64,000 bases of DNA from Candidatus Bathyarchaeota archaeon (GTDB taxonomy: Archaea > Thermoproteota > Bathyarchaeia > Bathyarchaeales > Bathycorpusculaceae). Of the stretch, positions 1-63,707 are shown in pieces. How positions within the stretch are numbered: the stretch's first letter is position 1; every line of letters begins with the position of its first letter. A program made the translations under genes and the position numbers. The DNA is taken from contig CAVYES010000008.1 of assembly GCA_963767735.1 (NCBI GenBank), forward strand, positions 128,001 through 192,000, written 5' to 3'. The notes beneath the pieces were generated by a model. That model saw only the letters and a list, made by a program, of their open reading frames with translations, searched no databases and was not told the DNA's origin.

Positions 1-1095
1 GGCGACTTTTTCGGCGTCAAACTCCAGCACACCTTTTTCACTGTAAACAAAGGGTGAAGTCTTCAGTTTCTGCAAGACCTCATTTACTTGGGCGCTCCAC
101 ACGAAGTCGCTTTCCCAATCCCACGAGTCATAAGTAACCTCAACCCTCTTCATGGTTTCCCTGAAACCTTCAAGGCACAAGTCGCTGACTTCACGAATAA
201 GCTGTTTAGCGAGGGGTTCTCCATCCTCGTAAGCTCGGTTCAGCCTGTTTATTTCTTCCTCTGGATTTTGGTCTTCACCGATTTTAGTCATCAACGCTTC
301 AAAGAGCACTGGGTATTTTTCTTTAAGCTCCGCGGCAATTGACATCCACTCGTCAATTTCCTTATTTGCTTTAACTAAATCGTCACTTGAATGGATCGCA
401 ATGGCTAGTTCACGCATTTTTTTTAAACGATTAATTTCAACAAGACAACTGGTAACAGTGTAAATTTTGCCAATGAAAAGGTCTGGTTTCTCTGTTGGTT
501 TTGGTCTGCCGAGCTTTTCGTAACCATAAGAAACAACAGATGATTGCCTGCCAACATCATCAATGTAGTAATGGCGTGAAACCTTATTTCCCCTGCACTC
601 CAAAATGCGCGCTAAAGCGTCACCTAACATAGGATTTCTGGCTTGCCCAATATGGATTGGATGAAGCGGATTAACACTTGTGTGTTCCAAGATAATTTTA
701 GTCGGCTCAGCAGTCTTAACAAAGCCATAATCAAACTTTAACTGCTTAACCGATCCCAAGGTTAAAGCTGAAAACTTGGGGAAGTTAACGTGAAAATTTA
801 TGTACCCTGCACCTGCACATGAAACCTTCTCAATCAGTTTAAAGCTGGATTTATCAATTGCAGCAACAAGATGCGCCGCAAGGTCTAGCGGTTTTTGGTT
901 TAGCTTCTTTGCCAACTCGAAACATAACGATGAAGCCAACTGACCATATTCAATGTTCGGTGTTTTACTGAGCGTTATATTTGGCGTTTTTACCTCTGGC
1001 AAAGCCTTCTTCAGCGCTTTCGCTAAAGCTGTTTGGCATTCTTGGCGAAATTGATCGAATGGATTTTCCGAAATCACTGAACTTCTCCCTGCCAT
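1..1095 (-). CDS. argS: Arginyl-tRNA synthetase, 5' part (runs off window start)
   Basis: Manual translation from ATG at 1095: ...PNIEYGQLASSLCFELAK...GAGYINF...ILEHTSVNPLHPIHIGQARNPMLGDALARIL...HYYIDDVGRQ; class I HIGH-like motif in ArgRS context. Confidence 0.95.
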   Translation of the reverse strand, partial: MAGRSSVISENPFDQFRQECQTALAKALKKALPEVKTPNITLSKTPNIEYGQLASSLCFELAKKLNQKPLDLAAHLVAAIDKSSFKLIEKVSCAGAGYINFHVNFPKFSALTLGSVKQLKFDYGFVKTAEPTKIILEHTSVNPLHPIHIGQARNPMLGDALARILECRGNKVSRHYYIDDVGRQSSVVSYGYEKLGRPKPTEKPDLFIGKIYTVTSCLVEINRLKKMRELAIAIHSSDDLVKANKEIDEWMSIAAELKEKYPVLFEALMTKIGEDQNPEEEINRLNRAYEDGEPLAKQLIREVSDLCLEGFRETMKRVEVTYDSWDWESDFVWSAQVNEVLQKLKTSPFVYSEKGVLEFDAEKVA

Positions 1096-1163
1096 TTTCC
1101 TGGAGTCTAACTTTGTTGAGGTTATGTTTTTTAAATATGTAAGCGTACTTATCTGTCTAATGG

Positions 1164-2021
1164 ATGCAGCAGGCGATGAAAACAAAGGTAATTTATTCAG
1201 AAAAATGTTTAGGCTACGGTACATGGCACATTGAAGGACCACAACGAGTAAAAATTGCATCTGAAATCCTGAAAGCAAAAGGTTATGAGTTTTTGGAGCC
1301 AACGCCTGCAAGTGAAGAAGACTTGTTAACTGTTCATGATGCGGATTACCTTTGGAACCTAAAGAAAGGTTTGGTTGAAGATTCAGATACACCTGCATAC
1401 GACAAAATCTACGAGTTTGCCAAGCTTTCGGTTGGCGGTGCACTTTTAGCCTCAAGAATTAACGGTTTTTCGCTTATGCGTCCGCCAGGACATCATGTTG
1501 GCAGAAATGGCGCTGCTTTGGGCGTTTACACGCGTGGGTTTTGCTATCTCAACAACATTGCGATAGCTGTTAAAAAGTTGGGCAAAAGAACCCTGATTCT
1601 GGATATTGACGGACACCACGGCAACGGAACTCAGGAGATTTTTCAAGGTGACAAGAAAATCCTTTACGTTTCTCTGCATCAATCGCCAAATTATCCTGGA
1701 ACCGGCTCTTTCGCTGAAGGTAATACTGTTAATTTTGCGTTGCCAGCAAATTGTGGTGGAAAACTGTATTTGGAGACGCTTGAAAAAGCCTTAGGAACGG
1801 TTGATTTGGGCAGGTTTGAGGTGATTGCAGTTTCTGCTGGTTTCGATACGCATCTAGGTGATTTAGCATCTTTAGGCTTAATTGAACAAGATTATTTTGA
1901 AATTGGCAAAAGGGTTGCTTTGCTCGGGAAGCCCACGTTTTTTGTTTTGGAAGGAGGTTACATAGGTGAAAAGGTTGGGGTGGATATTGATTTGTTTTTG
2001 AAAGGTTACGAAGAAACATAA
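1164..2021 (+). CDS. Histone deacetylase family protein
   Basis: RPPGHH, GFCYLNN, DIDGHHGNGTQ, SAGFD, LEGGY motifs. Confidence 0.95.
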   Translation: MQQAMKTKVIYSEKCLGYGTWHIEGPQRVKIASEILKAKGYEFLEPTPASEEDLLTVHDADYLWNLKKGLVEDSDTPAYDKIYEFAKLSVGGALLASRINGFSLMRPPGHHVGRNGAALGVYTRGFCYLNNIAIAVKKLGKRTLILDIDGHHGNGTQEIFQGDKKILYVSLHQSPNYPGTGSFAEGNTVNFALPANCGGKLYLETLEKALGTVDLGRFEVIAVSAGFDTHLGDLASLGLIEQDYFEIGKRVALLGKPTFFVLEGGYIGEKVGVDIDLFLKGYEET

Positions 2022-2033
2022 TTTAGGAAAAAG

Positions 2034-2654
2034 TTATTTTTGTCTTTTCGCCATTGCCTTCTTATTTAACGTTTCAAGTGTCTGTGTGACTTTTTCAGAG
2101 CGTTTCTCTGCAACTGCTAACAAGGGCTTCCAGTCTTTATTTTTGACCGTAATTGTTAGTTGGTCGCATTGACCAGGTAGTTTTTCTAGTGCGCCGTTGA
2201 AGAGTTTTTCTGCAGCTTCATCTGAATCCACTATTTCCAGTGCTTCTTCTGGGCAGGCCTCTTTGCATTTTGGTTCGCCTTGGCAGAGGTCGCATGCAAT
2301 GGCTTTTCCTGTGTCACAGTTGATGGTGATTCCGCCATGCTCACAGGCTTGTACGCACCAGTCGCAACCTTTACATTTTTTTTCATCTATGAGCAGTAAG
2401 CCCGTTTCTTCTGATTGTGATAGTGCATTTTCCGGACATGCTTTGACACATCGGGCATCTTTGCAGGCTCGACATGAAAGTGCAAAGTTGAAGAGCGGCG
2501 CCATGCGGACAACTCGGATTCTGGATTTCATTGGGTTCCAGATGCCTTCGCCTTTTTCCAGCGTGCAAGCATATTCGCAGATCCCACAGCCAATGCACTT
2601 GCCTGGGTCAACGGCTACGAATTTTCTTTTTTGTTCGGTTTTAGCGGATTGCAT
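2034..2654 (-). CDS. 4Fe-4S dicluster protein (DmsB/HycB-like electron transfer subunit)
   Basis: Four CxxCxx(x)CxxxC ferredoxin motifs. Confidence 0.9.
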   Translation of the reverse strand: MQSAKTEQKRKFVAVDPGKCIGCGICEYACTLEKGEGIWNPMKSRIRVVRMAPLFNFALSCRACKDARCVKACPENALSQSEETGLLLIDEKKCKGCDWCVQACEHGGITINCDTGKAIACDLCQGEPKCKEACPEEALEIVDSDEAAEKLFNGALEKLPGQCDQLTITVKNKDWKPLLAVAEKRSEKVTQTLETLNKKAMAKRQK

Positions 2655-2805
2655 TTTGAATCAGCCTTTTGATGTTTGAATATTGTGCGCGCCATTAGCT
2701 TTTAACCGTTACTTATAAAAAATGATTTTTTGATGAAAAACTTGCTCTGCAAATAATTTGCATCTTATCGGCGATAAGCGTTTGAAATAAAAAAAGGGAA
2801 AGATG

Positions 2806-3516
2806 CTATAGCTGTTTTCCGCATTGGGGGCAATAAGTTGCATCTGGCTTTACTTGTGCGCCGCAGTAGGAGCAGTATCGCGCTGTTTGAGATGGCTGTG
2901 ATGTAGTTTCTGTAGTGGAAGGCTGAGTGTAACTGTAGGGTTGAGAGGTTTGTTGTTTCTGTTGCGGAGATTTCATAGCAAAAAAGCCAATTACTGCAAA
3001 TATCCAAGCGATGAATATCAGTATTAGGCCGATGCCAAACAATATTGTCAGTAATGAGCCCCACCAAAGTAGGGTGCTCGCAGTTGTAAACGAGTGTTCT
3101 CCTGATTTCTGCGCAAGCGCGTTGAAGGTTTGTTTTAGGTGCACTGCTGCAAGTACATAGAATATGAAGGCAATGATAATCCCGCCAAGGAAAACTGCTA
3201 ATCCTATTCCGAATCCTGCCGTGAGTGTAAAGCTTGAATTAAATTTAAAGCCTGTTGCGGTTCCAACGCCGATTAATATTCCTGTAATGGCTACTGCCAC
3301 AGCTATCAAAGCGATTATGTAGTATTTGACGCCTGTCAATGCGTTCTGATAGAGTTCGTTGTCTTGATAATAATTTGCAAGTTCCTTGAGTCCTCTTAGA
3401 AGCAATATTACACCGATGATTCCCAATACCCATCCGACGTAAGGAACTATACCGAGTATAAGCAGTATCGATCCTTCGCCACACAATGTTTTGCTGTATT
3501 CGAAACTTGTACCCAT
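2806..3516 (-). CDS. DUF996-like membrane protein with C-terminal zinc ribbon
   Basis: Several TM segments, GSILLILGIVPYVGWVLGIIG, C-terminal YCSYCG...YCPQCG; start at ATG 3516 inferred. Confidence 0.8.
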   Translation of the reverse strand: MGTSFEYSKTLCGEGSILLILGIVPYVGWVLGIIGVILLLRGLKELANYYQDNELYQNALTGVKYYIIALIAVAVAITGILIGVGTATGFKFNSSFTLTAGFGIGLAVFLGGIIIAFIFYVLAAVHLKQTFNALAQKSGEHSFTTASTLLWWGSLLTILFGIGLILIFIAWIFAVIGFFAMKSPQQKQQTSQPYSYTQPSTTETTSQPSQTARYCSYCGAQVKPDATYCPQCGKQL

Positions 3517-3577
3517 TTGTTTTTTTCCTCCTAATTTTTGATTCCTGAAAACCATACAAGTCATAGGCGGGTTATAG

Positions 3578-3634
3578 CCCTAACAGTTAGAGTTACAGAT
3601 CCAATGTTTAGAGCTGCACCTCTAAGAGTTAGAG
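3578..3634. promoter_or_regulatory. Three operator-like imperfect palindromes at 21-bp spacing
   Basis: CCCTAA-cag-TTAGAG (3578), ATCCAA-tgt-TTAGAG (3599), CTCTAA-gag-TTAGAG (3620), between divergent genes. Confidence 0.65.
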
Positions 3635-3737
3635 TCATAAGTAAACCAGCGAATTATAGTGAAAACATGGAAAGAAAATTTAGCTGCAGAGCTTTGTTTA
3701 TCTTATCGTTGTTGGTTAGCCGGAGCAGTGGATGTAA

Positions 3738-4214
3738 GTGTCTAAGCCGCGTGGAATAAGCGCTGATATTCAATCGCCTAGAACGAAGCTGCTATACTTC
3801 ATCTATTCTGCCCCAAATAGCAGAATTAGGGCTGAACCAGGCGTTAAATCAAGCGTCTCCTCTGCATTAGGCTACAAGTCAGATGGACATTTTCATTATG
3901 ACTGGAATTACTTAATGAATGCCGGTATGATAGAGGAAAAACAAGGCTATTACCTTGTGACCGATGAGGGAAAAAAGGAGTTTGCTTTGCATTCAACAGC
4001 TTCGAGAAGTAACTCGGTGATGATTTTTCTTGGAATTGCCATTGTTGCTTTTACTTTTGGGCTTGAACTGGGAATTCTTCCCATAATAAGTGTAACATTC
4101 TTCGGGATAGCGCTAATCGCTATAGGTTCCGTGTTTCTGATTATTGACCGAAAAAAGAGACCGCAATTAACGCCTGAAGCCAAAGTTTTACTCAAAGAGT
4201 TAAATCACCACTAG
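3738..4214 (+). CDS. Hypothetical protein: N-terminal winged-helix-like region plus two TM helices
   Basis: YLMNAGMIEEKQGYYLVTDEGK resembles a wHTH wing; two hydrophobic segments follow. Confidence 0.6.
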   Translation: MSKPRGISADIQSPRTKLLYFIYSAPNSRIRAEPGVKSSVSSALGYKSDGHFHYDWNYLMNAGMIEEKQGYYLVTDEGKKEFALHSTASRSNSVMIFLGIAIVAFTFGLELGILPIISVTFFGIALIAIGSVFLIIDRKKRPQLTPEAKVLLKELNHH

Positions 4215-4240
4215 AACCAACACTCAGTGAAAAGAACCTT

Positions 4241-4284
4241 TGGTGCGGAGGGTGGGACATCCACCTTATTTTACTGGTAAAAAA
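4241..4284 (-). repeat. att-like site A: tRNA-Leu 3'-end copy with CCA plus type-1 palindromic arm
   Basis: gtgcggagggtggga identical to 7457-7471; 4250-4284 matches 63320-63354 at 34/35. Confidence 0.85.
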
Positions 4285-4533
4285 TATACCTGTATGCCGT
4301 ACGAGAGTTCCAATTTCGCTCAGGCTGCAGTCAACAGTAGTAGACATGGCTTTCAAGCTTTCGAACCAATTCTTTTTGACTTGCCCCTTAAAGGTGATAG
4401 TAGTTAGAGACTCAATGCGGTACCTTTGAATTCATGGTAGTTTGGCTGACAAAAACGCAGTACAGTTATGCAATTAGCGTGGGCTGTAACTCAGCTTATA
4501 CCTCAATTTTTACTCTGAACCGAGCACAAATAG

Positions 4534-5010
4534 TTAGGTTCGTTTCAGAAAGGCTTTGGCGACTTCATGCGCCCAGTTTTTTGTTTTCTCCAGTTCTCCG
4601 TCTTTCAGTTGCATTTGATTTATCTTGCCCTCCACGTAAGCCGTTAGGGGGGGCGAAACAATCTCGAACCCCAGTTTCCGAAGTTTGCTTTCCATTGTTT
4701 TAGTAGCACTTCCAATGCCTCCTATCCTGGATTTCACTTCTGTGTCAAAAACGGCTGCGAACTTGCCAGAAAATTCTTTATCTTTGAAACTACCAAGGAA
4801 TTCCATTATTCCTTTCGTTGCTCTAAAATACATTTTGGGCGCTCCAACGACCAGACGATCATAACTGCTGACTGTTGTCCGATTAACATTCTCAATGGAT
4901 ATAGACTCAGCCTCAATTCCTTCACCCTTCAGGATATCGCCGATAGCTTCAGCGACCTTCGCTGTTAACTTCATAGGGGAAACCGAGTCGTATACAACTA
5001 AAACTTTCAT
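4534..5010 (-). CDS. Flavodoxin-family protein
   Basis: MKVLVVYDS...TAKVAEAI, YDRLVVGAP, GKFAAVFDT. Confidence 0.85.
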   Translation of the reverse strand: MKVLVVYDSVSPMKLTAKVAEAIGDILKGEGIEAESISIENVNRTTVSSYDRLVVGAPKMYFRATKGIMEFLGSFKDKEFSGKFAAVFDTEVKSRIGGIGSATKTMESKLRKLGFEIVSPPLTAYVEGKINQMQLKDGELEKTKNWAHEVAKAFLKRT

Positions 5011-5139
5011 TCAACAACACCTTCCAACAATCTAGTCACTTCTCCCTTAAGAGAGTAACTAAAGCAGACCAAAGTTTCGAGCCGATCGTAAAAATCGAGT
5101 TTACTTTGCCAGATTAAGCCTGGAATAACCCTGAAATCG

Positions 5140-5182
5140 TGGTGCGGAGGGATAGGTTTACATTCACGTTTAAATTTCACAC
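5140..5182 (-). repeat. att-like site B: tRNA-Leu 3'-end copy with CCA plus type-2 arm
   Basis: tggtgcggagggataggtttacattcacgtttaaatttc; 34/37 identical to 6279-6315. Confidence 0.85.
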
Positions 5183-5257
5183 AAGAAAAGCCAATGAAAT
5201 CTAATCATCACGCCATTCTCTAAACATTGGGCAAGCTGGACCGGACTTCTCCCAAAC

Positions 5258-5497
5258 ATAGAAAACTCCGCAGCTTCAAGCTGAAATTGCTGCTGGAAAC
5301 AAGAAAGTCAGCGTTTTAGGAGAAGCGGTTGATCAACAATGTTTCCAGTTGAATCTAGTGATCTTGCACCAATAATCCTCGGAGAGGACATAAGATTATT
5401 TGAAAAGTTGAGTTCAAGACCAATTGAGTTGGAAAGATTTGAGGTTACCTCAATCGCTGGTGTTACAAGTCTTCAATTCAAGGTAGTAAACAGTTAG
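5258..5497 (+). pseudogene. Degraded C-terminal fragment of a DHFR/RibD-C family gene
   Basis: Manual translation across shifts: IENS..LQAEIAAGNKKVSVLGEAVDQQCFQLNLV / DLAPIILGEDIRLFEKLSSRPIELERFEVTSIAGVTSLQFKVVNS*. Confidence 0.7.
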
Positions 5498-5584
5498 TGC
5501 GCCGTGAAAAAAGTTTAAACGCTTGGCTAAAGCTAGTAAAGTAATAAGGCAAACAATATTTTTCAAGCGCGGAAGAATGATACT

Positions 5585-6193
5585 ATGAGAAAAATTATTG
5601 TCTTATCTTTTATAACACTCGACGGCATCATGCAGGCTCCTGGTGGACCCAAAGAGGATATAAGCGGCGGCTTCAAATACGGTGGATGGGCAGTTCCGTA
5701 TTTTGACGATTTTGCGGGCAAAGTCATGAGCGAGCAGATGGGACATCCGTTTGATCTCTTGCTCGGTCGAAAGACCTACGACATCTTCGTCAACTATTGG
5801 CCTGATCATAATGACCCAAAGGACCCTGTCGGCTCCGGGATCAACAAAGCAACAAAATTTGTGGCTTCCCGCTCACTCTTCAAATCAGACTGGGCAGGCA
5901 CTGTAATGTTACAAGGTGATGTTGCTGAAGCAATAAAGAAGTTAAAACAGCAATATGGGCCGGAGCTTCAAGTTCATGGAAGCGGCAATCTCATTCAGAC
6001 GCTCCTGAAACAGGATTTGGTTGATGAATTGTGGCTCAAAATCTTCCCAATAACGCTCGGCTCTGGGAAGCGGCTATTTGCCGACGGAACAGTATCGTCT
6101 GCATTTACGCTCATAGAGTCCAAAACCTCCCCGAAGGGAGTGATTATCGCATCCTACAAGCGAGTTGGAAAGGTCGAAACAGGATCGTTTTGA
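5585..6193 (+). CDS. Dihydrofolate reductase / RibD C-terminal domain family protein
   Basis: ITLDGIMQAPGGP, LLLGRKTY, VHGSGNLIQTLL...DLVDEL...PITLGSGKRLF. Confidence 0.92.
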   Translation: MRKIIVLSFITLDGIMQAPGGPKEDISGGFKYGGWAVPYFDDFAGKVMSEQMGHPFDLLLGRKTYDIFVNYWPDHNDPKDPVGSGINKATKFVASRSLFKSDWAGTVMLQGDVAEAIKKLKQQYGPELQVHGSGNLIQTLLKQDLVDELWLKIFPITLGSGKRLFADGTVSSAFTLIESKTSPKGVIIASYKRVGKVETGSF

Positions 6194-6278
6194 ACGAATT
6201 TAAAGTGGCAAATTTGCAATCGTGACCTATTTTTCTGAAATAGCCCATAATCAAACTCTATTTGGCGAAATGGGCAAA

Positions 6279-6315
6279 GTGCGGAGGGTGAGGTTTACAT
6301 TCACGTGTAAATTTC
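6279..6315 (-). repeat. att-like site C: tRNA-Leu 3'-end copy plus type-2 arm
   Basis: gtgcggagggtg identical to the tRNA end; TTTACA-ttcacg-TGTAAA inverted repeat. Confidence 0.85.
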
Positions 6316-6365
6316 GCCCAACGAGCCGCGAGCAATTTGTCATTAATCGGAATTAATCGAAGGCA

Positions 6366-7164
6366 TCAGGAGATGCTCTTTGACTTACGTTTCCTGTTAC
6401 GAATATACAAAACCGATGCGCCAGCTGCCACAACTGCTACCACGGCTGCAACGACAACGTACATGGCAAGAGTTGTGGTTGAAAGAGTGGAAGATGGAGC
6501 AAGAGTGGCAATTGGCCCGATGGAACTTTCCTCCCACCATGCGACAGTCGAATTGACTGTTTCGACTGCCTGAGACATATCTTGTTGACTGAGTCCTCCA
6601 GAATCAGTAATCGTCTGGTTTGCCTGCAGCAAGGCGGTGCTGTTACTTGCGAGGTCTTGAACCTCAACCAAGCCCTCAATTACCATCACATTAGCGGTGC
6701 CATTCTCATATGCTGCCGCAGTAAATTCAGTTCCCCGAACCCCAACAACAGCTGTCACACCAATATCAGCATCCCAATTATCGGATCCACCAGTTGCGCT
6801 TTCGATGTATGCCCAAAACCTACCTAACCAGGAGATAAAGGAGGTGGTGAAGGCCGTGAGGGTCATTATAAGCGACAGTTGTATTCTGATCAAATACGAT
6901 TTCACCGCCTGAGAATTGGATTAACAGTACACTATTCGGTCCTGTCATAATAGTGTCCCCTAAACTTATAGTGTCAGAGGGAACTAAAGGTGCCCATTCA
7001 ATGCCTCCATTGGAGCTTATCTGGACTGTCCCAGACACCCTTTGAACGGTAATAGGTTGCTCTGTGGACCCATTAACTGCGGGTGCAAGTGCTGGAATTG
7101 ATGTGAATGCCGCCGCTACTATGATAGCCGCCATGATTAATGCCATACTATAACTGTAGCCCAC
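6366..7164 (-). CDS. FecR-like domain surface protein with C-terminal TM anchor (frameshift near 6870)
   Basis: Two ORFs join: signal peptide, GDTIMTGPNS, then AVVGVRGTEF...VMVIEGLVEV, TM and basic tail. Confidence 0.75.
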
Positions 7165-7457
7165 ACTTGCCCCTCCGCAAAGTTCTTCCAAGTAAAAACT
7201 TTCAATCTCTAATTTAAAACCTTTGCAAATATGCCTAAAAAGTCGGTTAGATACAAAGTTGCACAAATCAAGCAACTCAAGGTTAGCTGAGTTGCATCTA
7301 GCGTATTCAAAGCATGCTGTATCCCATTGATCAGGCGCTTGTTAGAATAAGCACATGACCCCTTGAAATCATGTCTAAACTCAGCGCGATTCGCGAAAAG
7401 GCTTTACTTTCAAAATAGGTAGCATTCAGGCTTTATTTTGCAAAATGGGGGCAAAAG

Positions 7458-7542
7458 TGCGGAGGGTGGGATTTGAACCCACGAACCCCTGCGGGATAGG
7501 AGCCTCAGTCCTACGCCTTTGACCATGCTGGGCGACCTCCGC
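7458..7542 (-). tRNA. tRNA-Leu(GAG), no intron, CCA not encoded
   Basis: GCGGAGG/CCTCCGC acceptor stem, TAGGA-CTGAGGC-TCCTA anticodon arm, long variable arm, GGTTCAAATCC T arm. Confidence 0.97.
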
Positions 7543-7826
7543 AAACATATTTTTTGCTGATTGAGGTTGGTGCGAAATATAGAATTAGTCATGACATTTA
7601 AAGACTTTACTTTGCAGGTTGACTGTTAAGTGTTAAATGTGTTTATTACTGAAAAGGTTCCATGGGCAAGCTGATATTTGTAATTTTCCTGATTACATGC
7701 GAACGCTTAACTTGGCACAGTCTTGTTAAGAACCTCAATAAGCACAAACGTTAACATTTAAGTTCGATGTTTGCAAGACGCTTCTCTTATATTCTCCGTT
7801 TTCCCATATTTGGGGAAGGGAAGAAA

Positions 7827-63306: not shown

Positions 63307-63354
63307 TGGTGACGTCGGGGGGTGGGACATCCACCTTATTTTACCGGTAAAAAA
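63307..63354 (-). repeat. att-like site D: tRNA-like 3' end plus type-1 arm
   Basis: 63320-63354 is 34/35 identical to 4250-4284. Confidence 0.85.
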
Positions 63355-63494
63355 CTCCCAAAATGTGCTCACATTCGAGTGGTGAATCCAGGTAAGCATA
63401 GCCGCCCAACGGCATACTAAAAAAAGATTAACCGAGGCTCCACGGAAGAAAAGGTCAAGAAACGATTATTTGGAAAAACAGCCGAATTTTGAAA

Positions 63495-63537
63495 TGGCGC
63501 GGGATGTTAAGTTTAAACCCAAGTTTAAATTCCACAC
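63495..63537 (-). repeat. att-like site E: degenerate tRNA-like 3' end plus type-2 arm
   Basis: 32/43 ungapped identity to 5140-5182; TTTAAA-cccaag-TTTAAA. Confidence 0.7.
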
Positions 63538-63707
63538 GAAAATCCAACGATAAAAAATCAAACCTAATAGGTTTCAACGTTCAAACTCTCGGTTCGGACA
63601 CCGCGCACAAAACTACTCTAAGCAAACTCTTTTCAGGTCTCAAAAAATCAAAATTTACATATTCTTCTCTCTCACATAATGTACCAAGTAATTGTTAGGT
63701 GATTAAT

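What the first reader, a model, noticed from the sequence alone, without database searches (positions are those of the whole stretch)
4241..7542. Integron-like array of integrase-free mini-cassettes anchored on tRNA-Leu(GAG)
Seen: the tRNA 3' end (gtgcggaggg..., 7457) recurs in direct orientation at 6279, 5142 and 4243, with spacings of 1178, 1137 and 899 bp. Each interval holds essentially one accessory gene (FecR-like surface protein; DHFR/RibD-C protein; flavodoxin), in either orientation, and no recombinase. Each repeat is fused to a conserved non-tRNA arm. The flank before site C (aaatgggcaaagtgcgg) resembles the flank before the tRNA (aaatgggggcaaaagtgcgg), so both unit ends look conserved. 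Known: tyrosine integrases target tRNA 3' ends and displace the old 3' end outward, and tandem islands exist but are usually much larger and integrase-bearing. Inference: serial capture of about 1-kb non-autonomous circles by an integrase acting in trans, i.e. a gene-cassette system using a tRNA as its primary site.
Basis: partly seen in the sequence, partly recalled or inferred. Interest (0 to 1): 0.88.

Follow-up and report, generated by a model that had tools for sequence, protein, structure and literature searches.

The report
Integrase-free gene cassettes stacked behind tRNA-Leu
Behind a leucine tRNA gene of a soil Bathyarchaeia genome sit three small one-gene units, each bounded by a copy of the tRNA's end and by conserved arms found genus-wide, so they look like mobile gene cassettes that lack their own recombinase.

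Summary
GTGCGGAGGG, the 3' end of tRNA-Leu(GAG), occurs four times in direct orientation at 4243, 5142, 6279 and 7457, and nowhere else in the 3.04-Mb genome. The three intervals hold a flavodoxin, a RibD_C protein and a frameshifted FecR-like gene. None holds an integrase.

The arms are not local oddities. An "X" arm (sites B, C) and a "Y" arm (site A) recur in 40 of 101 genomes of the genus. They form arrays on tRNA-Leu(GAG) and tRNA-Ser(GCT). Of 69 units (median 1,986 bp), one holds a full integrase and two hold fragments.

Arm types pair across a unit, not across a junction, as expected for integrated circles. Whole integrase-less units are shared between species at higher identity than housekeeping DNA (94.6% against 79.6%). 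The RibD_C unit has three different neighbourhoods. One metagenome contig skips unit 3 exactly.

Best reading (about 0.5): non-autonomous integrative cassettes, inserted serially at the tRNA by a tyrosine integrase supplied in trans. Main rival (about 0.3): eroded remnants reshuffled by homologous recombination.

It is not an integron: there is no adjacent integrase, the sites do not fold like attC, and gene orientation is mixed. No circular form and no recombinase were shown.

The parts
7457..7542 (-). tRNA-Leu(GAG), the anchor (attB-derived site). Its last 10-15 nt form the repeated core. The gene here is followed by the P1 arm and not by an encoded CCA.
   Evidence: (52.5 bits, full model)
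7432..7456 (+). P1 arm (tttattttgcaaaatgggggcaaaa): the tRNA-proximal end of unit 3
   Evidence: (D3)
6366..7275 (-). Cargo of unit 3: a membrane-anchored FecR-domain gene, broken by one extra base near 6829-6831
   Evidence: The intact G091 homologue scores 30 bits on FecR (cut-off 24). table 4 shows a metagenome variant lacking that base.
6279..6321 (+). Site C: core GTGCGGAGGGTG plus the X arm (AGGTTTACATTCACGTGTAAATTTCGCCC). This is the distal end of unit 3.
6254..6278 (+). P1 arm (aactctatttggcgaaatgggcaaa): the proximal end of unit 2
5585..6193 (+). Cargo of unit 2: RibD_C (dihydrofolate-reductase-like) protein, 202 aa
   Evidence: E 1e-22. Homologous units in L135, L137 and G093.
5142..5184 (+). 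Site B: core GTGCGGAGGG plus the X arm (ATAGGTTTACATTCACGTTTAAATTTCACAC). This is the distal end of unit 2.
5109..5141 (+). P2-type arm (..attaagcctggaataaccctgaaatcgtg): the proximal end of unit 1
4534..5010 (-). Cargo of unit 1: flavodoxin-like protein, 158 aa
   Evidence: Flavodoxin_1, 27.8 bits, cut-off 25
4243..4282 (+). Site A: core GTGCGGAGGGTGGGA plus the Y arm (hairpin GGTGGGACATCCACC, then the palindrome TTTTACTGGTAAAA). This is the distal end of unit 1.
   Evidence: 95% to window 63316-63354
2755..4242 (.). Older inserted DNA without a recognisable outer core: DUF996 membrane protein at 2806-3564 (-) and a 158-aa membrane protein at 3738-4214 (+). It is absent from empty-site relatives.
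   Evidence: Homologues of the 158-aa gene lie just distal to X sites in L134, L139 and G004.
63308..63539 (+). A second array of the same system. A Y site (hairpin 63321-63335, palindrome 63339-63352) is followed by an 'empty' 188-bp unit ending in a P2 arm (63479-63496). Then comes an X site with a tRNA-Ser(GCT)-type core (63497-63506) and its arm (63507-63539). The array runs on beyond the window.

Best explanation
The 3' end of tRNA-Leu(GAG) is the chromosomal attachment site of a family of small integrative elements of soil and peat Bathyarchaeia. Each unit entered as a circle whose attP was P arm - core - X or Y arm, about 70-85 bp. The core copies the last 10-15 nt of the tRNA (acceptor 3' strand), so the tRNA is regenerated and the old end is pushed outward. 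Repeated insertion at the tRNA stacked three units: oldest flavodoxin (Y/P2 ends), then RibD_C (X/P1), and newest FecR-like (X/P1). The units carry no recombinase. They are non-autonomous derivatives of integrase-bearing relatives with the same X arm. They are, or recently were, moved by a Zn-ribbon tyrosine integrase supplied in trans, either from a resident paralogue or from a transient element. SHOWN: the repeats, the arm families, their genus-wide arrays on class-II tRNAs, arm pairing across units, variable content, unit-bounded homology that exceeds backbone identity, and one exact skip. INFERRED: the circular intermediate, the crossover inside CCCTCCGCAC, the trans-acting integrase, and present-day activity.
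For: (1) The core occurs 4 times against 0.01 expected, and these are the only copies in the genome.
(2) The X arm pattern is found in 40 of 101 genus genomes, with 0 hits to the reversed control. In the species-representative collection, 35 of 37 stretches come from records titled Bathyarchaeota or Bathyarchaeia.
(3) In 81 loci (1.02 Mb) there are 86 X and 13 Y sites forming 69 units. Median length is 1,986 bp (IQR 1,178-2,947), and 24 of 69 are 1.5 kb or less. The tRNA-proximal ends are Ser(GCT) 16, Leu(GAG) 11, Leu(TAG) 2 and Ser(GGA) 1. Only 1 of 69 units has a full integrase and 2 of 69 have fragments.
(4) Arms pair across a unit. Xa goes with P1 in 15 and P2 in 4; Y goes with P1 in 1 and P2 in 5 (Fisher p=0.012; 0.039 after dropping 6 homologous units). 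At junctions there is no association (p=0.23).
(5) Whole integrase-less units are shared with homology ending at the sites and above backbone identity. G001/G111 share 94.6% over 2,035 nt against 79.6% backbone. G018/G062 share 90.9% against 83.1%.
(6) The RibD_C unit has three contexts: G000 (Y unit | RibD_C | X unit | tRNA), L135 (RibD_C | tRNA) and L137 (X unit | RibD_C | Y site).
(7) One contig of run X2 joins 6275 to 7454, skipping exactly 1,178 bp. The shared stretch is 15 nt, shorter than the 31-mer used for those contigs.
(8) G003 and G071 have 93% identical backbones but unrelated tRNA-proximal cassettes.
(9) An autonomous relative exists. In G093:C34, tRNA-Leu(TAG) is followed by a 436-aa integrase, two genes and an X site, 2.8 kb in all. 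G000 has a 63%-identical paralogue on contig C9.
(10) Genes followed by P1 arms lack the encoded CCA that relatives without a P1 arm have, a footprint of replacement just past the core.
Against: No circular junction or go-back joint was seen. Only contigs, not reads, were available, and they drop rare forms.
The skip contig was laid at 90% or more likeness. It may come from an L135-like relative (89.5% to the window) rather than a near-identical strain, so it does not date the event.
The integrase clade of the one autonomous X unit is no commoner in genomes with X arms (25 of 40) than without (34 of 61). Several near-complete genomes with arrays lack it at E<=1e-80, namely G018, G012, G046 and G052.
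Integrase remnants occur next to P arms: 58 aa in L131, about 90 aa in G080, and 35 aa beside G000 C6. Unit 3 holds a broken gene, and the outermost core is missing. All of these show erosion.
Cargo and arms can separate. The FecR-like gene is 91% identical to one inside a 3-gene unit with other arms in G091, with no internal sites there.
Units from related genomes are not independent, and my arm classifier is crude.
Confidence: 0.5

Rival explanations
1. Fossil islands. Each unit is what is left of an ordinary integrase-bearing element that integrated at the tRNA and then lost its integrase and most genes by deletion. The integrase-less units never moved again. Differences between genomes come from new autonomous insertions at the tRNA, from deletions, and from vertical descent.
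For: A full integrase sits in 1 of 69 related units and fragments in 2 of 69, each on the P-arm side facing the tRNA. The FecR-like gene is frameshifted. The outer core at about 2755 is lost. Cores are degenerate at some sites, for example G004 GTGCAGAGTG. 'Empty' 181-188-bp units look like internal deletions. The archaeal literature attributes integrase-less integrated elements to gene loss (PMC8371274, passage seen). Prochlorococcus islands hold degenerated elements and scattered partial tRNAs (10.1101/2020.12.28.424599, passages seen).
Against: 66 of 69 units show no integrase trace. The same integrase-less 2.0-kb unit is collinear end to end in two species at 94.6% against 79.6% backbone, so it was already integrase-less when it spread. 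The X arm is kept almost letter-perfect across species whose housekeeping DNA is 70-90% identical, which dead DNA would not do. No P1- or P2-ended unit with a full integrase was found.
Confidence: 0.3
2. Recombination anchors. The conserved arms plus core (about 60 nt) act as portable homology. DNA taken up from relatives replaces or adds units by homologous recombination or slippage between these repeats, without any site-specific recombinase acting on the small units.
For: Homology blocks end at the sites. Arrays hold foreign cores, such as a Ser-type core inside Leu arrays in G104 and G098, and a Ser-type core in the Arg(CCT) array of G000. Cargo and arms can be separated. There is no co-distribution with an integrase clade. 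The exact skip could be a deletion between 15-nt repeats with similar P1 flanks.
Against: This does not explain why arm types pair across a unit. It does not explain why all sites keep one orientation next to tRNAs with matching cores. It does not explain why the arms have the look of protein-binding sites: two direct GTTTAMA..CAC repeats, and a 14-nt palindrome, which is my reading. It also needs the first arms to have come from integrative elements anyway.
Confidence: 0.12
3. Chance repeats or an assembly artefact of a metagenome-assembled genome.
For: The genome is a 10-contig assembly. X sites often lie near contig ends in other assemblies.
Against: 0 of 100 shuffles reach 4 copies. The same architecture is seen in many independent assemblies, including single-contig genomes (G003) and separate metagenome contigs.
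Confidence: 0.01

Closest known systems
Tandem tRNA-targeted genomic islands built by tyrosine integrases (Islander-type islands; Prochlorococcus tycheposon islands)
   Same: Integration is at a tRNA 3' end. The tRNA is regenerated and the displaced fragment marks the far end. Newer elements push older ones outward, and partial tRNAs are scattered through the island (passages of 10.1101/2020.12.28.424599; abstract of PMC4383910 in the listing).
   Different: Those elements are defined by their own integrase: 937 integrase-carrying elements, with cargo-carrying ones holding about 1 kb for integration, 2-4 kb for replication and up to 10 kb or more of cargo. Here 66 of 69 units have no integrase trace and the median is 2 kb. 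Both unit ends are conserved arm families shared by units with unrelated cargo.
CIMEs (cis-mobilizable elements of streptococci): att-flanked elements without recombination genes, related to ICEs
   Same: They are non-autonomous, flanked by the att sites of an autonomous relative, sit in tandem ('accretion') at one site, and depend on another element's integrase. This is recalled; the review PMC5704250 was seen only in the listings.
   Different: CIMEs are bacterial, sit at a protein-gene 3' end, occur as one or a few copies, are usually larger, and move in cis with an ICE. Here the units are in archaea, anchored on tRNA genes, in arrays of up to 5 or more units of 0.2-3 kb, with two or more arm families. 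No partner element is in the array.
dif modules of Acinetobacter plasmids and IMEX elements (Xer-dependent)
   Same: Small one- or two-gene modules (toxin-antitoxin and adaptive genes) without a recombinase, bounded by short recombination sites, shuffled between replicons, and moved by a recombinase encoded elsewhere (abstracts of PMC6449649 and PMC13141974).
   Different: Their sites are XerC/D-binding dif-like sites in alternating orientation on plasmids. Here the sites are direct copies of a tRNA 3' end with X/Y and P arms on the chromosome.
Integrons and CALINs, including archaeal integrons
   Same: An array of mostly single-gene cassettes, each with a recombination site. There is a primary site where new cassettes enter. 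Cargo is adaptive and of unknown origin. Arrays without integrase (CALINs) exist (term seen in the abstract of PMC7923331; archaeal integrons: abstract of 10.1101/2022.02.06.479319).
   Different: There is no IntI next to the array. The sites do not fold better than shuffles and are tRNA-derived. Genes lie in either orientation. The archaeal integron preprint has 0 occurrences of 'Bathyarchae' in its text.
Archaeal integrated plasmids and viruses with lost or split integrases (SSV-type 'suicidal' integrases)
   Same: They are archaeal, target tRNA genes, and may integrate in tandem. Integrase loss after integration has been reported (PMC8371274 passages; PMC7253208 abstract).
   Different: No int(N)/int(C) halves flank the units. 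By my reading, reading the X arm through the core into P1 gives only about 19 codons. The one autonomous relative has an intact, oppositely oriented integrase.

Membership tests
Integron | Integron-type tyrosine integrase (IntI) encoded next to the primary site | tested here: not met
   No PF00589 match on contig C8. tblastn with 7 integrases finds nothing in 2600-7600 at E<0.05. The gene on the tRNA's 5' side is a conserved hexapeptide transferase.
Integron | attC sites: imperfect inverted repeats that fold as single strands | tested here: not met
   Seven folds were run: both strands of sites A, B and C, and one strand of the tRNA junction. Z-scores ran from -1.77 to +1.06, none beyond shuffles. 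The arms are direct repeats or a short palindrome.
Integron | Promoterless cassettes in one orientation behind a common promoter | tested here: not met
   Cargo strands are -, +, -. Orientations are mixed in 69 related units.
tRNA-targeted integrative element / genomic island | Direct copy of the tRNA 3' end at the far boundary, with the intact tRNA regenerated | tested here: met
   There are four direct copies and the tRNA scores 52.5 bits over the full model.
tRNA-targeted integrative element / genomic island | Own integrase inside the element, usually next to the tRNA | tested here: not met
   None in the three units. Present in 1 of 69 related units.
Non-autonomous, att-flanked element (CIME-like) | Carries the att arms of an autonomous relative but no recombination genes | tested here: met
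   The X arm is shared with the integrase-bearing unit of G093:C34. However, that unit's P arm is neither P1 nor P2.
Non-autonomous, att-flanked element (CIME-like) | Excision and integration driven by another element's integrase | not testable with these tools
   Needs an experiment or read-level population data. There is only indirect support and no co-distribution.
Xer-dependent dif module / IMEX | Flanking sites are dif-like XerC/D (XerA) binding sites | not tested
   The sites are tRNA acceptor and T-arm copies by direct reading. No archaeal dif model was run.
SSV-type partitioned integrase element | attP inside the integrase gene, so that int(N) and int(C) halves flank the integrated element | tested here: not met
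   No integrase similarity beside any of the four sites. Frames across the core do not continue into an integrase (my reading).

The most novel reading that the evidence does not exclude
Soil and peat Bathyarchaeia have a tRNA-anchored gene-capture system that works like an integron but is built from different parts. Non-autonomous cassettes of 0.2-3 kb have a 70-85-bp attP (P1 or P2 arm, tRNA-end core, X or Y arm). They are inserted, excised, shuffled between arrays on class-II tRNA genes (Leu-GAG, Ser-GCT, Ser-GGA, Leu-TAG) and exchanged between species. The recombinases are Zn-ribbon tyrosine integrases that act in trans, with the tRNA playing the part of attI.
Probability: 0.4. Interest if true: 0.85.

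Novelty: new variant of a known kind. Interest (0 to 1): 0.72.

Why it matters
If the small units are mobilised in trans, this would be a recombinase-free cassette system in archaea, and one that uses tRNA genes as its docking site. It would explain how uncultivated soil Bathyarchaeia trade small adaptive genes. Among 99 cargo ORFs these include flavoproteins, ABC transporters, dehydrogenases and toxin-antitoxin pairs. It would offer short, defined attachment sites (about 70-85 bp) and candidate integrases as tools for archaeal genetics. It would also bear on how non-autonomous integrative elements arise from autonomous ones. Even under the fossil reading, the arm families give a ready marker for mapping island boundaries and tRNA-fragment annotations in these genomes.

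Tried and rejected
SSV-type split integrase. The X arm begins with GTG and reads through the core (ORF 5007-5180). But through P1 it stops after about 19 codons (my reading). At the Arg(CCT) site the frames differ by one, and no integrase similarity flanks the sites. Rejected.

attC-like folding. Not supported.

The 52-aa ORF at 5339-5497 as a second RibD_C fragment. No Pfam hit and no BLASTP alignment to the neighbouring RibD_C. Dropped.

Outer core near 2755. None was found; the flank simply diverges from relatives.

The 295-aa integrase at tRNA-Arg(CCT) (G000 C6) as the X-arm enzyme. Its 5.4-kb element ends in a true tRNA copy, not an X arm. Not supported.

Co-distribution of the G093-type integrase clade with X arms: 25 of 40 against 34 of 61. 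No association (hand count).

Viral contigs: 0 stretches with the X arm.

Reads. Only Logan contigs were on offer. The best run held 0.33 of the sampled words. No go-back (circle) joint was reported, and many bins had no cover. Neither result says anything about absence.

Literature. My searches found no description of such arrays. This covers only the held library, and supplements were not opened.

My first arm classifier mislabelled many arms. The second still mislabels a few. Window unit 2 was called P2, and G104 and G004 were called 'other'. I report its raw counts.

For the cargo Pfam profile I gave 99 of the 126 ORFs of 100 aa or more, leaving out 27 from the two longest units.

G015 was left out of the locus comparison because its best match (85%) is another tRNA.

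Full report
OBSERVATION.
The window holds one tRNA, tRNA-Leu(GAG), at 7457-7542 on the minus strand. Its 3'-terminal ten bases, read on the plus strand as GTGCGGAGGG, occur four times in direct orientation. They lie at 4243 (site A), 5142 (B), 6279 (C) and 7457 (the tRNA). The expectation is 0.01. These are the only copies in the 3.04-Mb assembly.

B and C continue into a shared 43-nt arm (88% identical). The flanks left of C and left of the tRNA are alike (family D3). A continues into a different arm: a hairpin followed by the palindrome TTTTACTGGTAAAA.

The three intervals (899, 1137 and 1178 bp) hold one gene each:
- a flavodoxin (4534-5010, minus strand);
- a RibD_C protein (5585-6193, plus strand);
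- a FecR-like gene (6366-7275, minus strand).

The FecR-like gene is broken by one extra base near 6829-6831 relative to an intact 288-aa homologue. A metagenome variant lacks that base (table 4). No integrase lies on the contig or near the sites.

THE LOCUS IN RELATIVES.
I compared the tRNA-Leu(GAG) locus in 23 genomes of the genus. The conserved backbone is window 5-2750 on one side and 7775 onward on the other.

In G002 and G021 the backbone reaches to within 75 and 89 bp of the tRNA, which is the empty state. So about 2755-7456 of the window is inserted DNA. It has no core copy at its outer edge.

Seven of the 23 relatives carry extra core copies behind the tRNA. The units are 629 bp (G018), 702 bp (G005), 891 bp (G007), 739 bp plus 6,959 bp (G003), 2,084 bp (G004), 4.8 kb, 44 bp and 1.9 kb (G009), and 1,408 bp (G013). 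Their contents are unrelated to those of the window.

None of the five relatives' loci checked holds a PF00589 match: G001, G003, G004, G005 and G009. G004 is the closest relative (backbone 87-92%). It shares only the site-B region and a remnant of the 158-aa gene.

ARM FAMILIES.
Right of a core there is one of three things:
- the X arm, NNAGGTTTACAYYCACGTTTAAATTYCAC, which reads as two direct GTTTAMA..CAC repeats;
- the Y arm, a hairpin plus TTTTACCGGTAAAA;
- true tRNA sequence.

Left of a core there is a P1 arm (ctaattggcaaaaggNgNaaa) or a P2 arm (gctgaatttggaaatg).

The X pattern is present in 40 of 101 genomes of the genus, and the reversed control gives 0. In the species-representative collection, 35 of 37 stretches come from records titled Bathyarchaeota or Bathyarchaeia. 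There are none in viral contigs.

In G000 itself there are ten X sites and eight more Y sites matching a stricter pattern that does not pick up site A or the window's second Y site. The X sites include one at 63497 in this window. The Y sites include six over 50 kb beside tRNA-Ser(GGA).

ARRAYS.
In 81 loci (1.02 Mb) I counted 86 X sites and 13 Y sites forming 69 units.
- Median length is 1,986 bp and the IQR is 1,178-2,947.
- 24 units are 1.5 kb or less.
- Three are only 181-188 bp, consisting of arms alone.
- The arrays end on tRNA-Ser(GCT) (16), tRNA-Leu(GAG) (11), tRNA-Leu(TAG) (2) and tRNA-Ser(GGA) (1). All are class-II tRNAs.
- Sites always lie in the orientation expected for displaced 3' ends, mostly with the matching core.

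One of the 69 units holds a full integrase and two hold fragments. Some loci are the same region seen in two collections, and related genomes are not independent.

Cargo of 99 ORFs is typical accessory material: ABC transporters, PNPOx and FMN-reductase or flavodoxin proteins, dehydrogenases, methyltransferases and PIN toxins.

WHY UNITS LOOK LIKE INTEGRATED CIRCLES.
If a circle with attP = P-core-X (or P-core-Y) integrates, its two arms end up at opposite ends of the unit. Each junction is then a hybrid of two units.

That is what is seen. Across units, Xa goes with P1 (15 against 4) and Y with P2 (5 against 1), with Fisher p=0.012, or 0.039 after removing six homologous units. At junctions, arm types are unassociated (p=0.23).

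In the window, unit 1 is Y...P2 and units 2 and 3 are X...P1.

Genes followed by a P1 arm lack the encoded CCA that relatives without a P1 arm have. So DNA immediately after position 74 is element-derived. The crossover must therefore lie within the shared CCCTCCGCAC. This is an inference.

EVIDENCE THAT INTEGRASE-LESS UNITS MOVE, OR MOVED.
(a) A 2.0-kb single-gene unit is collinear from site to site in G001 and G111 at 94.6%, while their housekeeping DNA is 79.6% identical. The units nearer the tRNA differ. G018/G062 share a unit at 90.9% against 83.1% backbone.
(b) The window's RibD_C unit occurs next to the tRNA in metagenome contig L135. In L137 it lies between an X unit and a Y site. In G093 its gene and 3' flank lie in a tRNA-Leu(TAG) array.
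(c) A contig of run X2 joins 6275 to 7454, skipping unit 3 exactly.
(d) G003 and G071 (93% backbone) have unrelated tRNA-proximal cassettes.
(e) The FecR-like cargo is 91% identical to a gene in a tRNA-Ser(GCT) array of G091, whose backbone is 76% identical.
(f) Arrays contain foreign cores. A Ser-type core sits in the Leu arrays of G104 and G098. A Ser-type core sits in the Arg(CCT) array of G000. These are as expected if a cassette carries one core with it, or if arms recombine.

EVIDENCE FOR EROSION, AND AGAINST A SIMPLE TRANS MODEL.
- G093:C34 shows an autonomous X-type unit: tRNA-Leu(TAG), a 436-aa Zn-ribbon tyrosine integrase facing it, two genes, then an X site.
- Fragments of such integrases lie on the P-arm side in L131 (58 aa) and G080 (about 90 aa), and beside the G000 C6 array (35 aa).
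- The integrase clade is not co-distributed with X arms: 25 of 40 against 34 of 61.
- The FecR-like gene sits inside a three-gene unit with other arms in G091, with no internal sites, so cargo and arms can part.
- The skip contig may come from an L135-like relative, so it does not prove recent excision.
- No circular form was seen, but only contigs were available.

CONCLUSION.
The array is real. It is built by serial site-specific integration at the tRNA, and it belongs to a genus-wide system of arm-defined units.

The most likely account (about 0.5) is that the units are non-autonomous cassettes moved in trans by tRNA-targeting tyrosine integrases. Autonomous, non-autonomous and decayed members would then coexist.

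The main rival (about 0.3) is that they are immobile remnants. A further rival (about 0.12) is exchange by homologous recombination at the conserved arms.

It works somewhat like an integron but is not one. The nearest known kinds are CIMEs, Xer-dependent dif modules and tRNA-island systems such as tycheposons.

PAPERS.
- 10.1101/2020.12.28.424599, PMC8371274 and PMC6563490: passages.
- PMC6449649, PMC13141974, 10.1101/2022.02.06.479319, PMC7253208, PMC4383910 and PMC7923331: abstract starts in listings.
- PMC5704250: listing only. What I say of CIMEs is recalled.
- No supplements were opened. Tycheposon supplementary examples could bear on how small integrase-less island units are there.

Noticed in passing
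window 63308-63539 (continues to G000:C8:194344, outside the window): A second array of the same system. A Y site is followed by a 188-bp 'empty' unit made only of the Y leader and a P2 arm. Then comes an X site with a tRNA-Ser(GCT)-type core. About 2.8 kb further on lie a P1 arm and a degenerate tRNA 3' fragment. The 188-bp unit is 80-84% identical to ones in G098 and G009; G104 holds a similar short Y-to-X interval.
   Followed up: partly
G000:C6:523685-573130: At least six Y-type sites carry tRNA-Ser(GGA)-type cores, all in one orientation, spread over about 50 kb beside tRNA-Ser(GGA). This would be a very long array.
   Followed up: partly
whole genome G000: Of 42 ARAGORN tRNAs, 11 have 14 direct copies of their 3'-terminal 12-mer (1 mismatch or fewer) within 30 kb, all on the 3' side. 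Only one 5'-end copy was found. Several lie just 0.8-1.7 kb away: Arg-TCT, Pro-CGG, Ser-CGA and Gly-CCC.
   Followed up: partly
G000:C6:581955-587440 (L071 about 1955-7440): A 5.4-kb integrated element at tRNA-Arg(CCT). A 295-aa integrase starts right after the tRNA, followed by a 444-aa protein and CBS/wHTH proteins. The element is bounded by a true copy of the tRNA end. Two X sites lie beyond it, one with a Ser-type core.
   Followed up: partly
L042 (G005), L024 (G007), L033 (G003), L040 (G023): VapB/VapC-like (PIN) pairs sit next to tRNA-Leu(GAG). In G005, G007 and G003 they form units of 702-891 bp bounded by 35-64-nt copies of the tRNA; in G023 the pair lies beside the tRNA without a detected copy. 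In G003 the pair is inverted relative to the others.
   Followed up: partly
window 2806-3564 and G000:C5:51512-51855: The DUF996 membrane-protein gene in the older part of the island has a paralogue (68-76% DNA identity) lying directly 3' of tRNA-Glu(TTC). This is possibly another island.
   Followed up: no
G000:C4:1-5821: Three X sites with tRNA-Ser(GCT)-type cores lie at the very start of contig C4. No intact tRNA-Ser(GCT) is in the assembly. The tRNA probably sits in the assembly gap.
   Followed up: partly
G000:C5:3748-4248 and C6:3746-4246: Two ORFs of 481 aa with weak PF00589 matches lie at the same offset from the starts of two contigs. This suggests a repeated element at contig ends. 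Paralogues of 505-508 aa lie elsewhere.
   Followed up: no
G000:C4:206549-207345 and C7:305904-306680: Integrase genes end about 250 bp upstream of the 5' end of tRNA-Arg genes, co-oriented with them. At C7, the tRNA-end copy lies 18 kb away on the tRNA's 3' side. I did not explain this arrangement.
   Followed up: no
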